The notes under the pieces were generated by a model. It ran no database searches. It was given only the letters and a program-made list of their open reading frames with translations, and had not been told where the DNA came from. Positions 1,195 through 5,082 of a stretch of 5,082 bases of DNA are shown here, piece after piece. Numbering within the stretch: the stretch's first letter is position 1; the number at the start of each line of letters is the position of its first letter. The DNA lies in the IMG/VR virus record IMGVR_UViG_2579778652_000011; one strand, written 5' to 3'. Source of the stretch: a virus. Lineage: Duplodnaviria; Heunggongvirae; Uroviricota; Caudoviricetes. Both the position numbers and the translations under genes were made by a program.

Positions 1195-1356
1195 ATGTCT
1201 GAAAAAAACAAGCCACAAGATGAAAATAAACCTCAGCAACCCGTGGCACCAAAACCAACTCCAACACAAAGTACTACAGACTTTGCTACACGTCGTGTTT
1301 TTGTTGGAGATTCTGCCGACTCAGTCATTGAACATATAAAAAAACAGCCGAGATAA
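1195..1356 (+). CDS. Candidate small protein, 53 aa, hydrophilic and Pro/Lys/Gln-rich, convergent with and overlapping the 3' end of the membrane-protein gene
   Basis: ATG at 1195 preceded by AAGAGGA Shine-Dalgarno with 5-nt spacing. Translation MSEKNKPQDENKPQQPVAPKPTPTQSTTDFATRRVFVGDSADSVIEHIKKQPR. Overlaps the minus-strand gene by 32 nt. No homolog recognised, and low-complexity composition makes a chance ORF possible. Confidence 0.3.
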   Translation: MSEKNKPQDENKPQQPVAPKPTPTQSTTDFATRRVFVGDSADSVIEHIKKQPR

Positions 1357-1894
1357 ACATCGCCGCTACCGGAGCAAGGATGGTATACATCCTTGCTTTA
1401 TCGAGACTCGTGCGGATTTTCTCATTTTCCAACAGTAACTCTCTTGCTGTATCACTCAAGTCAACAAGGCGATACCTTCGTATAAGCGGCAATAACTTAT
1501 CAGGTCCTAAATATCCTGCATCAGCGAATATTTTAAAGCTCGAGGGCTCCATATCCTTATATTTTTCATGATATAGATGATCAGGAGGGGCATTGATCAG
1601 GCCCCTAACCTTCACAGATAAACCAGTACATACCAAGTAAATGGCGCACCATGTCCATAGTAATGTAAATGTGGTAATTCCGGCGGTGAGAAAATCGAAA
1701 TTAGTTTTCTGTGTCAGCAATAAAAAAGATGAACCAATTCCAACAATCTGAATGTTCAGAAGTTTGTATCCATTCTCAACATTGGTTTTGTTAGAAAGAT
1801 GAATCTCTCGTATCGTCTCTTCCCCTTGTTTTTCAAGATAATCGACGAGCTCATCATCTACTCCTAAAAAATAATCTTTAGGTAGTTCTCTCAT
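1325..1894 (-). CDS. Uncharacterised membrane protein, 189 aa, moron cargo between Q and the lysis cassette
   Basis: Strong GGAGGTGAG Shine-Dalgarno directly upstream of the ATG at 1894. Predicted soluble N-terminus of about 55 aa, two adjacent TM helices (LLNIQIVGIGSSFLLLT, FLTAGITTFTLLWTWCAIYLVCTGL), a charged helical segment of about 60 aa, and a C-terminal hydrophobic helix (MYTILAPVAAMFISAVFLYV). Markedly more AT-rich than the flanking phage genes. No family recognised. Confidence 0.7.
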   Translation of the reverse strand: MRELPKDYFLGVDDELVDYLEKQGEETIREIHLSNKTNVENGYKLLNIQIVGIGSSFLLLTQKTNFDFLTAGITTFTLLWTWCAIYLVCTGLSVKVRGLINAPPDHLYHEKYKDMEPSSFKIFADAGYLGPDKLLPLIRRYRLVDLSDTARELLLENEKIRTSLDKARMYTILAPVAAMFISAVFLYVQ

Positions 1895-2945: not shown

Positions 2946-3544
2946 TACGCAAACTCCAGTAGTTGTGCGGCCACATTTTCAACTTCCTCCTGAGAGGAGA
3001 ATTTACGGAACAGAATCCAGTTCCACAGCACATTCAGAACAGATTTATAAACCTGCTGAAACTCGGTTTCGTCCATATTCGCAAACGCGATGGATTTCGC
3101 CCTGCGCCCACGGCTACCGTCCGGATAAATATGCTCGGTGTAAAATCCGGCCTGAATGGTTACCCACTCGCGGAAAGCCTCAAACGACTTTAGCAATGCC
3201 GTATCCCGAGTTCTGCGTGTCGCAACTGTATTTAGATATTGCTCTGCGGCATCACTCAGGGCTGGTGTGTGTTCCCGACCAACTGATTCGCACAAGTAAT
3301 CCACGAAACCAGACAGCAGTTCTCGTTCGCGAGGTGTGATCGCCCCACCGACCGGAGTCCAGTAATCGAATCCCAGTTGCAGGAGTTTGAAAAAACGCTT
3401 GTGGAATGCGTAGTTACGCACACGCTTAAAGTCTGCGTGTATCCACTCACCTATTTTGATTTGATGCAGAAAATCGCAACTCTCCGGCGTCGCCGGGAGA
3501 AGTAAACCAGAAGAGGTTTGTTTGACCAGTTGTATATGCGCCAT
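2945..3544 (-). CDS. Phage nin-region protein, probably DUF1367 family, 199 aa
   Basis: Long ORF directly upstream of and translationally coupled to the YbcO-like gene, the usual DUF1367 to DUF1364 to Q arrangement in lambdoid prophages. Family assignment is from recollection, not a search. Confidence 0.6.
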   Translation of the reverse strand: MAHIQLVKQTSSGLLLPATPESCDFLHQIKIGEWIHADFKRVRNYAFHKRFFKLLQLGFDYWTPVGGAITPRERELLSGFVDYLCESVGREHTPALSDAAEQYLNTVATRRTRDTALLKSFEAFREWVTIQAGFYTEHIYPDGSRGRRAKSIAFANMDETEFQQVYKSVLNVLWNWILFRKFSSQEEVENVAAQLLEFA

Positions 3545-3602
3545 TTCTCAATCTCTCGATGGCGCAGCGCAGCAGATGCCAGTTGTTCAGGCTGACGAAT
3601 AA

Positions 3603-3630
3603 AGTATAAATAAACTGGCTATGGTGTAAA
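3603..3630 (-). promoter_or_regulatory. Candidate sigma70 promoter for the DUF1367/YbcO/Q operon
   Basis: On the minus strand, TTTACA (plus 3625-3630), a 16-nt spacer, then TATACT (plus 3603-3608), about 60 nt upstream of the ATG at 3544. By sequence only. Confidence 0.3.
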
Positions 3631-3824
3631 GCCCCACATAGCATGAACAAACACTACATATCAAATAGCTGGTACAAGGATAGAAATACGACATTTATTA
3701 TTAAAAACGATTAGATAAATTACATTTTAATGTTATGCAAAAGTTCTTTTTTATCATAACATTTCAATAAAAGCATTACAGATGCAATCATCCCGTCATC
3801 ATCAATTATTTAAGGTGGTTAAAC

Positions 3825-3911
3825 ATGGAAAATAACAAGTTCGCACATCTCGCTCCTTTTTTATCCGTAATCCTTTTCGCTTGTTGTTTTATATGGGCAT
3901 TATTTTTATAA
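3825..3911 (+). CDS. Candidate small hydrophobic protein, 28 aa, single predicted TM helix
   Basis: ATG at 3825 preceded by TAAGGTGG Shine-Dalgarno with 6-nt spacing. Translation MENNKFAHLAPFLSVILFACCFIWALFL. Lies in AT-rich intergenic DNA. Confidence 0.35.
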   Translation: MENNKFAHLAPFLSVILFACCFIWALFL

Positions 3912-3984
3912 AGTAGCCACATGATAAGTTGCTGGAATCATATTTCCCACTCAAGTCATTAACATTTGATAAGATATATCTAAA

Positions 3985-4045
3985 AGGACACCTTTACATT
4001 ATTTATGTGTATATAATTTATTTATATACACAGTAAAGGTATCCT
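3985..4045. repeat. Composite imperfect palindrome: perfect 10-bp inverted repeat TGTGTATATA / TATATACACA with 7-bp spacer, flanked by 13-bp arms AGGACACCTTTAC / GTAAAGGTATCCT (12/13)
   Basis: Read directly. Inner arms at 4006-4015 and 4023-4032, outer arms at 3985-3997 and 4033-4045. The left side carries an 8-nt insertion (ATTATTTA) between outer and inner arms. Confidence 0.6.
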
Positions 4046-4302
4046 GGGAAAATATTTATCGTTAAAAAATACATCATAAATAATTAAGCTGAAATTTCAG
4101 AACACAACTAATACACACAATAAGGTTCAGTAACAATAATCTATGTGGACTACATCGAGATTTTTTGATTAAACTTTAATAACTTATTCCTAACACACAG
4201 AATGCATAAACTAAAAGTAAAACAAATAGTTATACGAAAAACAACCATATTTATTATATCTTCTCCTCTAATCAACATATCAATTATGTGTTTCATAACA
4301 GC

Positions 4303-4350
4303 TTGACATAACCCTCAAAAACACGCATTTATAATGCATGTTTTTGAGGG
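4303..4350 (+). promoter_or_regulatory. yeaR-like promoter region with an NsrR-like operator palindrome centred on the -10
   Basis: Perfect TTGACA (4303-4308) and TATAAT (4330-4335) separated by 21 bp. 17-bp arms CCCTCAAAAACACGCAT / ATGCATGTTTTTGAGGG (16/17) centred at 4331. The core AACACGCATTT-A-TAATGCATGTT (4320-4342) matches about 18 of 22 positions of the NsrR 11-1-11 consensus as I recall it (AAGATGCATTT n AAATACATCTT). Confidence 0.5.
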
Positions 4351-4357
4351 GGTGGTT

Positions 4358-4696
4358 ATGACACACAAGAGAATTCCTAAAGATTGGGTAATCAAACGCT
4401 CAACTCCGTTCTTCACAAAAGAGAACGTACCTTCAGCGTTATTAACACATCATAATACAGCAGCAGGTGTTTTTGGGCAGTTGTGCGTAATGGAAGGCAC
4501 TGTAACATATTATGGTTTTACTGATGAGAATGCTACTGAACCGGAGATAAAAGTAGTCATTAATGCTGGCGCTTTTGCAACAAGCCCACCACAATACTGG
4601 CACCGTGTTGAACTAAGCGATGATGCTCAGTTTAATATTAACTTTTGGGTCGCTCCAGACTTCTCGGGCGAAAAAGTCTATAGCACCAAAAAATAG
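4358..4696 (+). CDS. yeaR: YeaR-like DUF1971 protein, 112 aa
   Basis: Size and motifs (RSTPFF, FNINFWVAP) resemble my recollection of E. coli YeaR. The NsrR-like operator upstream fits known NsrR/NarL regulation of yeaR. Start taken at ATG 4358 after a GAGGGGGTGG Shine-Dalgarno, because the annotated ATG at 4334 lies inside the -10 hexamer. Confidence 0.6.
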   Translation: MTHKRIPKDWVIKRSTPFFTKENVPSALLTHHNTAAGVFGQLCVMEGTVTYYGFTDENATEPEIKVVINAGAFATSPPQYWHRVELSDDAQFNINFWVAPDFSGEKVYSTKK

Positions 4697-4725: not shown

Positions 4726-4762
4726 AGACCCGGCAGGGCTATCCCCGACGGGTCTCATTTTT
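4726..4762 (+). terminator. Intrinsic terminator downstream of the yeaR-like gene
   Basis: 7-bp stem AGACCCG (4726-4732) pairs with CGGGTCT (4749-4755), with additional imperfect inner pairing. Followed by CA then TTTTT (4758-4762). Confidence 0.6.
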
Positions 4763-4914
4763 GTAAATATATTGGTTCTACATTGACAGGAGACTTCAAC
4801 CATAAGAAGTAATCTGAATACTTGAGCAATAAATTTACTTAAGATTAATGAGCGCACCTTGCCGGACAAAGATAAACCAAGGTAACACCTTTTTTCTAGC
4901 CAGTATGTAATCAA

Positions 4915-5082
4915 TCAGAAAGCCGCTCCATAAGAACAACAGCAAGACAATAAATTGCCATTACAGCCGCAATAGCCAGCGCACATTTGAGAACCAGCAC
5001 GACAACCCCCTGTATTAGACGCACACCAGTCCTGATAAATATGTAGACTGGCCCCCTGAATCTCCAGACAACCAATATCACT
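4915..5082 (-). CDS. Possible 3' end of a gene entering from beyond the window (55 open codons, Cys-rich C-terminus)
   Basis: Minus-strand frame is open from 5082 to a TGA at 4917-4915. Translation ends ...QDWCASNTGGCRAGSQMCAGYCGCNGNLLSCCCSYGAAF. No start or Shine-Dalgarno is visible in the window, and an open frame of this length can occur by chance. Confidence 0.15.
   Translation of the reverse strand, partial: SDIGCLEIQGASLHIYQDWCASNTGGCRAGSQMCAGYCGCNGNLLSCCCSYGAAF

What the first reader, a model, noticed from the sequence alone, without database searches (positions are those of the whole stretch)
3800..3915. Small hydrophobic 28-aa ORF with a strong Shine-Dalgarno in AT-rich intergenic DNA
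MENNKFAHLAPFLSVILFACCFIWALFL has a short polar N-terminus followed by a single TM-length hydrophobic stretch, the same build as small membrane proteins and type I toxins (Ibs, ShoB, TisB, ZorO). It has a near-consensus Shine-Dalgarno at ideal spacing and sits alone in about 700 bp of AT-rich DNA between the prophage edge and the yeaR-like gene. No antisense RNA can be called from sequence alone.
Basis: partly seen in the sequence, partly recalled or inferred. Interest (0 to 1): 0.5.

Follow-up and report, generated by a model that had tools for sequence, protein, structure and literature searches.

The report
Unannotated 28-codon prophage membrane-peptide gene
The 28-codon reading frame is very probably a real but never-annotated gene for a tiny membrane peptide, carried with its own conserved control region in prophages of about a fifth of E. 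coli genomes; it may be a new RNA-controlled toxin, but that is not shown.

Summary
The ORF (3825-3911, +; MENNKFAHLAPFLSVILFACCFIWALFL) and its Shine-Dalgarno (TAAGGTGGT, 3811-3819) are there as described. Comparative evidence says the ORF is a real gene.

- **Distribution:** related DNA occurs in 1175 of 5426 complete E. coli genomes, and no listed match has an annotated feature under it.
- **Integrity:** the frame is exactly 28 codons in all ~160 prophage copies examined, including those found through an upstream non-coding block rather than the ORF.
- **Selection:** changes fall mostly at third codon positions (pN/pS about 0.2). There are no indels in the ORF, while the leader diverges to 45-49% identity with indels.
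- **Boundaries:** homology between clades ends at the stop codon.

The ORF is not at a prophage edge. It lies inside a Rac-like prophage, at a cargo site upstream of the nin/Q genes, next to hokD, IteAS or a DUF1971 gene in different strains.

It belongs to a ~230-bp cassette with a very conserved 45-nt block, a conserved leader stem-loop, and a candidate antisense RNA. That RNA has a promoter over the start codon and a covarying terminator-like hairpin. This layout is type I toxin-antitoxin-like, but expression, the antisense RNA and toxicity are all untested. No known family matches. K-12 lacks it in the three prophage regions checked.

The parts
3825..3911 (+). 28-codon ORF (stop included). 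Predicted single-pass membrane peptide with a polar N-terminus and a 20-residue hydrophobic segment. Cys21 and Trp24 are unchanged in every intact copy.
   Evidence: All complete copies (about 160) keep 28 codons; variable sites by codon position are 6/6/17; pN/pS is about 0.2; there are no indels.
3811..3819 (+). Shine-Dalgarno TAAGGTGGT, 5-6 nt from the ATG.
   Evidence: -8.4 kcal/mol with the 16S 3' end. Kept as TAAGGTGAG, TAAAGTGAG or TAAGGTAGT in other clades. Predicted to be mostly paired in the leader (mean unpaired probability 0.31; AUG 0.1).
3693..3737 (.). Very conserved non-coding block (CTTATTATTAAAA..G.TTA.A.AAATT..ATTTTAATGTTATG). It marks the left end of the cassette.
   Evidence: 87-91% identity between clades, against 79-81% for the ORF and 45-49% for the leader. 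Used as an ORF-independent search anchor. Retained in L085, where the flanks are unrelated.
3696..3701 (+). Candidate sense-promoter -10 hexamer TATTAT. The -35 is weak in the window; in clade B it is TTGCCG or TTGCTG at 16 nt. It would start the mRNA near 3708, giving a leader of about 117 nt.
   Evidence: TTGCCG-16-TATTAT, 9 of 12, in L002. (a -10 at this position in 52 of 52 unique sequences). Inferred, not mapped.
3730..3762 (+). Conserved stem-loop. The 8-bp arms are ATGTTATG and CATAACAT; the 17-nt loop varies but forms its own inner stem in each clade.
   Evidence: 52 of 52 unique sequences are fully paired, the only changes are G-C to G-U and U-A to U-G (both tolerated only on the + strand), and the inner-stem pairs change on both sides; z = -4.3 against shuffles. 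repeat I5.
3763..3810 (+). Poorly conserved leader segment with indels, lying between the two conserved islands.
   Evidence: 45-49% identity and 2-5 gap columns between clades.
3805..3831 (-). Candidate antisense promoter. The -35 TTTCCA (3831->3826) is the reverse complement of the start of the ORF; the -10 AATAAT is at 3810->3805, with a 15-nt spacer in the window.
   Evidence: The scan tool calls it in clade B as TTTCCA-16-TATGAT. A -10-like hexamer (TATGAT, CATAAT or AATAAT) is at this position in 52 of 52 unique sequences. The window's version is not called by the tool because of its 15-nt spacer.
3680..3709 (-). Terminator-like hairpin on the minus strand (arms 3709->3705 and 3696->3692, loop UUAAUAAU) followed by a U-rich tail (3691->3680).
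   Evidence: The tool calls it in L002 and L004. All cells are paired on the minus strand in 38 distinct sequences, and 2 of 5 pairs show compensatory changes. In the window's clade the stem is weak: CGUUU/AAAUG in the window (one G-U pair), CGUUU/AAGUG in most clade A copies (two).
3683..3798 (-). Candidate cis-antisense RNA of about 110-116 nt, complementary to the leader of the small-ORF mRNA.
   Evidence: Inferred from the promoter and terminator-like elements above. Folds are (z from -0.3 to -2.5). There are no expression data.

Best explanation
The ORF is a real, translated gene for a 28-residue inner-membrane peptide. The peptide has a short polar N-terminus and one transmembrane helix that runs to the C-terminus, with Cys21 and Trp24 unchanged in every intact copy. 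The gene is carried on a self-contained cassette of about 230 bp (window about 3683-3911) at a cargo site of Rac-like and lambdoid prophages in E. coli and Shigella.

The most likely working model is a type I toxin-antitoxin-like module. In this model:
- The mRNA starts at a weak promoter inside the conserved block (-10 TATTAT, 3696-3701).
- It carries a leader of about 117 nt with a conserved stem-loop and a largely paired SD and AUG.
- A cis-antisense RNA of about 110 nt starts from a promoter that overlaps the start codon and ends at a small hairpin inside the conserved block.
- That RNA pairs with the leader and keeps peptide synthesis low.
- When the peptide is made, it inserts into the inner membrane and disturbs it, or disturbs a membrane protein.

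What is shown: the ORF, the SD, conservation of the frame, a purifying-selection signature, the conserved non-coding elements and the genomic context. What is inferred: transcription start sites, the existence of the antisense RNA, membrane insertion and toxicity.
For: **The gene is real.**
- Related DNA is in 1175 of 5426 complete E. coli genomes. In the diverged copies the homology runs only from the SD region to the stop codon.
- All 127 copies found through an N-terminal pattern are 28 codons long.
- Among 157 loci found through the upstream block, independently of the ORF, every copy complete in its locus is 28 codons long.
- Variable sites by codon position are 6/6/17. pN/pS is about 0.2 in the ORF frame, against 1.0-1.5 in the other frames apart from the antisense frame that shares the wobble position (0.25), which has a stop in most alleles.
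- The ORF has no indels; the leader does.

**The cassette is autonomous.**
- The right-hand neighbour varies among 163 loci: hokD, a TehB-like gene, IteS or others.
- In L085 the block and ORF sit beside tail-fibre genes, with unrelated flanks.

**RNA-level control is plausible.**
- The block is 87-91% identical between clades, more than the ORF.
- The stem-loop at 3730-3762 is paired in 52 of 52 sequences, with changes tolerated only on the + strand and compensatory changes in the inner stem.
- The tool calls a minus-strand promoter and a terminator-like hairpin in L002 and L004.
- A -10-like hexamer sits at that position in 52 of 52 sequences, as three different hexamers.
- The terminator stem is fully paired on the minus strand in 38 sequences, with 2 compensatory pairs; 13 of 500 shuffles reach the observed values.
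- The SD and AUG are predicted to be mostly paired.

**Build and neighbourhood.** The hydropathy profile fits a membrane peptide. The neighbours are toxin or defence genes: hokD, IteAS, SIR2.
Against: - There are no expression data of any kind.
- The promoter and terminator calls are consensus matches in AT-rich DNA, where 1.7-5.7 promoter-like hits per region are expected by chance.
- The terminator stem is only 5 bp. In the window's clade it contains G-U pairs (one in the window, two in most clade A copies), and in L085 it lacks a U-rich tail.
- In the window the antisense promoter has a 15-nt spacer, and the sense promoter has no recognisable -35.
- The whole mRNA is no more stable than shuffled sequence (z = -0.33).
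- The -35 of the antisense promoter is dictated by the codons Met-Glu-Asn, so its conservation is not independent evidence.
- Nothing matches in any profile library searched, the Hok/Gef model included.
- There are only 1-2 copies per genome and no tandem copies.
- Many small E. coli membrane proteins with the same build are not toxic (general knowledge).
Confidence: 0.4

Rival explanations
1. The gene is real and makes a membrane peptide, but the peptide is not a toxin. It is a prophage accessory ('moron') protein expressed in lysogens. It would work by binding a host or phage membrane protein, for example to block superinfection or to tune a transporter or sensor, as many small E. coli membrane proteins do. 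On this reading the conserved block and stem-loop are an ordinary promoter, operator and leader, and the antisense promoter is a chance match.
For: - All the evidence that the gene is real applies here too.
- The ORF points against the phage early-gene direction, in a cargo slot.
- Cys21 and Trp24 are unchanged in every intact copy, which suggests a specific contact rather than generic membrane damage.
- There are only one or two copies per genome.
- The terminator is weak and the promoter is off-spacing in the window's clade.
- From general knowledge, many non-toxic small membrane proteins share this build.
Against: - It does not explain why a non-coding block is better conserved than the ORF.
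- It does not explain why the small hairpin in the block changes only in ways that keep pairing on the minus strand.
- It does not explain why a -10-like hexamer persists at one minus-strand position in 52 of 52 sequences.
- No partner protein co-occurs consistently, because the neighbours vary.
Confidence: 0.38
2. The conserved unit is a non-coding element, either an RNA or a DNA-binding site. The 28-codon frame stays open only by chance or because of nucleotide-level constraint, and no peptide is made.
For: - The best-conserved part of the cassette is non-coding.
- Some synonymous positions are fixed across clades, namely GCTCCTTTTTTA (codons 10-13) and the last 18 nt.
- No protein evidence exists.
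Against: - Substitutions fall mostly at third codon positions and pN/pS is about 0.2.
- The most diverged allele (L085) differs from the window by 10 synonymous and 5 non-synonymous changes.
- There are no indels or stops in about 160 copies, although the adjacent leader has both indels and 45-49% identity.
- Homology ends exactly at the stop codon.
- A strong SD is kept at a fixed distance.
Confidence: 0.08
3. The ORF is the leftover N-terminus of a longer gene, either a signal peptide or a lipoprotein signal, or it is a leader peptide that regulates a downstream gene.
For: - It gives weak, sub-threshold HMM matches to lipoprotein or spanin signal regions (NF033515, E = 0.03; phrog_6073, E = 0.24).
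- The window has an L-F-A-C string that resembles a lipobox (sequence).
Against: - The length is fixed at 28 codons in all clades under purifying selection.
- The lipobox-like string is not conserved: the residue before the Cys is L or F in clade B.
- In a word-indexed search of a 5.8-billion-cluster database, the only relatives are three aberrant alleles, one fusion and two frameshifts.
- The downstream gene differs between loci and is often convergent, so a leader-peptide role is excluded.
Confidence: 0.04

Closest known systems
Type I toxin-antitoxin loci whose antisense RNA covers the toxin mRNA leader (hok/sok, ldr/rdl of E. coli)
   Same: A small hydrophobic peptide gene with a long leader. 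A candidate antisense RNA starts inside the leader or start region and runs away from the ORF. The location is on a mobile element. In most clade B loci the cassette lies tail-to-tail with hokD, with the two stop codons about 110 nt apart.
   Different: There is no sequence similarity to Hok/Gef or to any other toxin model. There is no overlapping mok-like reading frame. The antisense RNA and the toxicity are unproven. The peptide is shorter (28 aa) and lacks a polar C-terminal domain.
Short type I toxins Ibs (19 aa) and ShoB (26 aa)
   Same: Very short peptides that are almost entirely hydrophobic and end in hydrophobic residues without a charged tail (sequences recalled from memory).
   Different: No HMM match. 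Ibs genes are fully overlapped by Sib RNAs and occur in several copies; ShoB's antitoxin OhsC is divergent. Here the candidate RNA covers only the leader and the gene is single-copy.
Non-toxic small inner-membrane proteins of E. coli K-12 found by small-protein screens
   Same: Size, a single predicted TM helix, a good SD, and being missed by annotation because of length.
   Different: This gene was not found in the K-12 prophage regions checked (DLP12, Rac, nin-hokD part of Qin). It is prophage-borne and comes with an unusually conserved non-coding block and a candidate antisense RNA.
Prophage 'moron' genes (for example bor and lom of lambda, by general knowledge)
   Same: A cargo gene in a lambdoid prophage with a candidate promoter of its own. 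Its orientation suggests independence from the phage lytic programme (inferred), and its position is variable: L085 carries it beside tail-fibre genes.
   Different: It is far smaller. It has no strong terminator of its own in the window. Its function is unknown.

Membership tests
Type I toxin-antitoxin system (generic definition: Fozo et al. 2010, PMC2887945 abstract) | A small hydrophobic protein, typically under 60 aa, with a predicted transmembrane segment. | tested here: met
   28 aa. Residues 9-28 have a mean Kyte-Doolittle value of +2.5 and residues 1-8 are polar.
Type I toxin-antitoxin system (generic definition) | An sRNA gene, in cis or nearby, that is complementary to the toxin mRNA. 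| tested here: inconclusive
   The minus strand has a promoter-like site over the start codon and a terminator-like hairpin. The tool calls both in clade B, they are positionally conserved in 52 of 52 sequences, and the stem covaries. Both elements are weak in the window's clade, and there are no RNA data. No trans-complementary partner was found in the window.
Type I toxin-antitoxin system (generic definition) | The protein is toxic when over-produced, and the sRNA represses its synthesis. | not testable with these tools
   This needs inducible expression and antisense-promoter mutants.
Known toxin families (Hok/Gef PF01848 and any other toxin models held in Pfam-A and NCBIfam) | A significant match to the family profile. 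| tested here: not met
   Three peptide variants gave no hit at E up to 10 in Pfam-A and only a sub-threshold lipoprotein hit in NCBIfam. As a positive control, the truncated HokD of L005 scores 3e-16 against PF01848.
Known anti-phage defence proteins (PADLOC) and phage protein families (PHROGs) | A significant match to a family profile. | tested here: not met
   PADLOC gave no hits. PHROGs gave only E = 0.1-0.3 matches to hydrophobic stretches.
Bacterial lipoprotein signal peptide | A conserved lipobox, [LVI][ASTVI][GAS]C, at the end of the hydrophobic region. | tested here: not met
   The window has LFAC and one variant has FAGC, but most variants have VLC or VFC before the conserved Cys. 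The best HMM hit, NF033515, scores 14 bits against a cut-off of 35.
Known RNA families (Rfam 15) | A match at or near the gathering score. | tested here: not met
   Only spurious microRNA-type matches to AT-rich palindromes, far below the gathering scores, and none over 3680-3915.
Protein-coding gene (operational test) | The frame is kept open, substitutions are biased to synonymous sites, and a ribosome-binding site is kept, across diverged copies. | tested here: met
   The ascertainment through the upstream block does not depend on the ORF.

The most novel reading that the evidence does not exclude
The cassette is a new family of type I toxin-antitoxin module: a 28-aa membrane toxin with a cis-antisense RNA of about 110 nt against its leader. 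It is present in roughly one in five E. coli genomes yet absent from every annotation and protein database, probably because the ORF is shorter than the usual gene-calling length cut-offs. Its role would be to stabilise prophages or to abort infection by competing phages from a prophage cargo slot. A second unannotated small hydrophobic ORF in the same window (5000->4911, minus strand) hints that such cassettes may be common in these AT-rich prophage islands.
Probability: 0.35. Interest if true: 0.65.

Novelty: new member of a known kind. Interest (0 to 1): 0.5.

Why it matters
If the peptide is made, this is a widespread E. coli and Shigella gene that no listed genome record annotates and no protein database holds in its normal form.

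- None of nine exact peptide variants is present among about 15 billion database proteins.
- The only relatives found are three aberrant alleles that happen to be long enough to be called.
- It was not found in the K-12 prophage regions checked, which would explain why K-12 small-protein screens did not report it.

The cassette sits among prophage toxin and defence genes. It could therefore affect prophage stability, phage resistance or persistence in clinical and veterinary isolates. It is also a concrete example of what length cut-offs of about 30 aa hide. The conserved non-coding block and candidate antisense RNA give a compact, directly testable regulatory model.

Tried and rejected
**Searches that found nothing**
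- The search for homologous proteins refuses queries under 40 aa. A 56-aa concatenation of two variants was used instead. It found only three aberrant alleles and no longer or foreign homologues.
- Structure prediction and the search of protein representatives need at least 30 aa, so they could not be used.
- Pfam, NCBIfam, PHROGs and PADLOC gave nothing significant.
- Rfam gave only spurious microRNA hits.
- Full-text search for the peptide strings returned 0 papers.
- The held supplements of the Sakai small-gene paper and of Sberro et al. do not contain the peptide. Fozo 2010 has no supplements held. The hokW-sokW paper says nothing relevant.
- K-12 MG1655's DLP12 and Rac regions and the nin-hokD part of Qin have no homologue.
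- The one-genome-per-species scan found only Shigella flexneri, with a strict N-terminal pattern, so more distant relatives may have been missed.

**Readings considered and rejected**
- The 38-aa antisense ORF at 3806..3922 (-): its frame is interrupted by a stop in most alleles outside the window's clade.
- An upstream ORF starting at the ATG at 3735: its length and frame differ between clades.
- A second sense promoter, GTTATG-17-CATAAC (3732-3760): the -35 is poor, the last -10 base varies (C/T), and the two hexamers behave as arms of a hairpin.
- A trans-encoded complementary RNA elsewhere in 3400-4400: only AT-rich chance matches.
- An antisense promoter just past the stop codon (3927->3899): its -10 is lost in the GCGGTA alleles and its -35 lies in non-homologous DNA.
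- A globally stable mRNA fold: z = -0.33.
- A long-range helix seen in clade B antisense folds: it competes with the terminator hairpin and was not pursued.

One search was an unneeded two-sequence alignment.

Full report
**1. The observation**

TAAGGTGGT at 3811-3819 matches 8 of 9 positions of the Shine-Dalgarno consensus and lies 5-6 nt from the ATG. Its predicted pairing with the 16S 3' end is -8.4 kcal/mol, the 4th strongest among the 80 ORFs of at least 20 aa in the window.

Residues 1-8 are polar and residues 9-28 are strongly hydrophobic. GC falls to 0.26-0.31 across 3601-4200, against about 0.5 in the phage genes to the left. ORF length alone means little here, because 21 ORFs of at least 20 aa overlap 3300-4400.

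**2. Where the window comes from**

The intergenic stretch 3560-4340 is 100% identical to several E. coli chromosomes. In strain USDA-ARS-USMARC-49610 it lies inside a Rac-type prophage at ttcA.
- To the left, on the minus strand, are Rz, lysozyme, holin, a DUF1133 Q-like gene, DUF1364 and DUF1367.
- To the right are a TehB/DUF1971 gene, SIR2, an NTP pyrophosphatase, an amidohydrolase, TetR, ydaF, sieB, kil and an integrase remnant.

So the ORF is at an internal cargo site, not at a prophage edge. No feature is annotated under the match in any listed genome.

**3. Is it a gene?**

*Distribution.* A 221-nt query around the ORF matches 1175 of 5426 complete E. coli genomes. In the roughly 700 genomes with diverged copies (about 79% identity), the match runs only from the SD region to the stop codon.

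*Frame integrity.* I fetched copies in two independent ways.
- A degenerate pattern for the N-terminal codons gave 127 copies. All are 28 codons long, with 10 peptide variants and 13 DNA alleles.
- A pattern for a non-coding block about 87 nt upstream of the ATG gave 157 loci. Every copy that is complete in its locus again has an intact 28-codon frame, including new variants A7V, A10V and F12S.

*Selection.* Variable sites fall 6/6/17 by codon position. pN/pS is about 0.2 in the ORF frame and 1.0-1.5 in the other frames. The exception is the antisense frame that shares the wobble position, which carries a stop in most alleles. The most diverged allele (L085) differs from the window by 10 synonymous and 5 non-synonymous changes.

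*Contrast with flanks.* The ORF has no indels, whereas the adjacent leader is 45-49% identical between clades and has gaps. Downstream of the stop codon, homology vanishes. Cys21, Trp24 and the length are unchanged in every intact copy.

I conclude that the frame is under purifying selection as a coding sequence.

**4. Why nobody has it**

None of nine peptide variants exists as an exact sequence among about 15 billion database proteins. A search with two variants joined end to end found only three relatives: one N-terminal fusion and two frameshifted alleles, each long enough to be called.

At 87 nt with its stop codon, the ORF is under the length cut-offs of about 30 aa that annotation has historically used (my recollection that Prodigal's minimum is 90 nt is from memory).

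K-12 MG1655 has no copy in DLP12, in Rac, or at the equivalent site of Qin. In Qin, homology resumes only at the hokD 3' terminator. The peptide is absent from the full text of the paper library and from the supplements I could search.

**5. Context**

Among 163 loci:
- The left neighbour is the first nin-region gene: DUF1367 in 93, an alternative small gene in 60.
- The right neighbour varies: hokD convergent in 100 (in most, the stop codons are about 110 nt apart), the TehB-like gene in 34 (6 of them also carry hokD), IteS of the IteAS defence system in 15, and others.

In L085 the block and ORF lie beside tail-fibre genes with unrelated flanks. The ORF also occurs in induced phages. The unit that travels is therefore the block, the leader and the ORF together, about 230 bp.

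**6. The non-coding part**

*The conserved block.* The block at 3693-3737 is 87-91% identical between clades, more than the ORF at 79-81%.

*The stem-loop.* Next comes a stem-loop at 3730-3762 with 8-bp arms.
- It is fully paired in 52 of 52 unique sequences.
- Its two kinds of change (G-C to G-U, U-A to U-G) keep pairing only on the + strand.
- The variable loop forms a different inner stem in each clade, with changes on both sides.
- The local fold is unusual (z = -4.3), although the whole mRNA is not (z = -0.33).

*The sense promoter.* A -10 TATTAT at 3696-3701 is present in 52 of 52 sequences. It is paired with TTGCCG or TTGCTG at 16 nt in clade B but has no good -35 in the window. If it is used, the leader is about 117 nt and contains the stem-loop, which fits the + strand bias of that stem. 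The SD and AUG are predicted to be mostly paired.

**7. A candidate antisense RNA**

In clade B loci the scan tool calls a promoter on the minus strand, TTTCCA-16-TATGAT. Its -35 is the reverse complement of ATGGAAA, the start of the ORF, and its -10 lies just upstream of the SD. The tool also calls a terminator-like hairpin, CGCUUUUAAUAAUAAGCG followed by a U-rich tail, inside the conserved block.

*Promoter.* A -10-like hexamer with A2 and T6 sits at this position in 52 of 52 unique sequences, as TATGAT, CATAAT or AATAAT. In the window it is AATAAT (3810->3805) with a 15-nt spacer, so the tool does not call it.

*Terminator.* The stem is paired in every one of 38 distinct sequences on the minus strand. 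Two of its five pairs show compensatory changes, and its G-U variants would be A-C mismatches on the + strand. Thirteen of 500 shuffles reach the observed values.

*Predicted product.* The RNA would run from about 3798 to about 3685, roughly 110 nt, and be fully complementary to the leader.

*Weaknesses.*
- Consensus hits are common in AT-rich DNA.
- The stem is only 5 bp and is weak in the window's clade.
- L085 lacks the U-rich tail.
- The -35 is fixed by coding.

I put the chance that this RNA exists at a little under one half.

**8. What it most likely is**

I put the probability that it is a real gene at about 0.85 to 0.9. It would make a peptide with one TM-length hydrophobic segment. 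Topology was not predicted; the only charged residues are in the N-terminal eight.

A small hydrophobic ORF with a long leader, an occluded SD and an antisense RNA over the leader is the layout of hok/sok and ldr/rdl. The neighbours are toxin and defence genes. I therefore rank a type I toxin-antitoxin-like module first (about 0.4).

A non-toxic accessory membrane protein comes close behind (about 0.38). A purely non-coding element (about 0.08) and a gene remnant or leader peptide (about 0.04) are poorly supported.

**9. Membership**

The peptide matches no Pfam, NCBIfam, PHROGs or PADLOC model, and the region matches no Rfam family. It is not a member of any named toxin family. The lipobox-like LFAC in the window is not conserved.

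For the generic type I definition: the hydrophobic-peptide criterion is met, the sRNA criterion is inconclusive, and toxicity cannot be tested here.

**10. Verdict**

This is a new member of a known kind: an unannotated, conserved small membrane-protein gene on a mobile cassette, possibly a new type I module. Interest is moderate (0.5). It is solid and widespread, and easy to test, but not conceptually surprising.

Noticed in passing
window 4911-5000, minus strand (leader runs past the window end at 5082; L001 9340-9640): A second unannotated small hydrophobic ORF. It has a GTG start 5 nt after a GGGGG Shine-Dalgarno and encodes 29 aa, (M)LVLKCALAIAAVMAIYCLAVVLMERLSD: a TM segment followed by a charged tail, which is a type I toxin-like build. 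Twelve DNA alleles in the fetched loci differ mostly at synonymous sites. Its 301-nt region is in 1950 of 5426 E. coli genomes, and no small ORF is annotated under any listed match. It has no Pfam hit and is absent from the K-12 regions checked.
   Followed up: partly
window 4303-4357: An 18-nt near-perfect palindrome (4312-4329 / 4333-4350, 94% complementary) lies just upstream of the DUF1971/TehB-like gene (4358-4696). It sits between a perfect TTGACA (4303-4308) and over a perfect TATAAT (4330-4335), which are 21 bp apart. Its core, AACACGCATTT-A-TAATGCATGTT, resembles the 11-1-11 NsrR operator known for yeaR-yoaG, hmp and ytfE. That resemblance is from memory and was not tested. It would suggest nitric-oxide control of this prophage yeaR paralogue.
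   Followed up: no
window 3985-4045: A large imperfect palindrome (22-nt arms, 77% complementary, 17 nt apart; the inner 11-nt arms are perfect) in the AT-rich spacer downstream of the small ORF (repeats I2 and I13). It is present in the clade A relatives L005 and L074. Its function is unknown. Rfam gives only spurious microRNA matches.
   Followed up: no
window 3603-3630, minus strand: A promoter-like site, TTTACA-16-TATACT (10 of 12), about 60 nt upstream of the DUF1367 gene start (3544). The same site is called in L002 and L004. The nin-region genes may therefore have their own promoter, divergent from the small-ORF cassette.
   Followed up: partly
proteins P0001-P0003: The only database proteins related to the peptide are aberrant alleles. 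One is fused to an upstream frame (58 aa) and two are frameshifted after residue 20-23 (58 and 36 aa). Rare disrupted copies therefore exist, and only they pass the gene-calling length limits.
   Followed up: yes
window 4727-4762: GC-rich inverted repeat AGACCCG...CGGGTCT followed by TCATTTTTG, right after the DUF1971 gene's stop codon. It looks like an intrinsic terminator when read directly from the sequence. The scan tool did not call it, perhaps because the loop exceeds its 3-8 nt limit.
   Followed up: no
L001 4827-6004, compared with window about 1350-1900: In the otherwise identical prophage of strain USDA-ARS-USMARC-49610, an IS3 element lies next to the minus-strand hypothetical gene that seems to correspond to window 1352-1894. 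That gene is only 339 nt there, which suggests truncation; I did not align the two. The window has no IS3 there.
   Followed up: no
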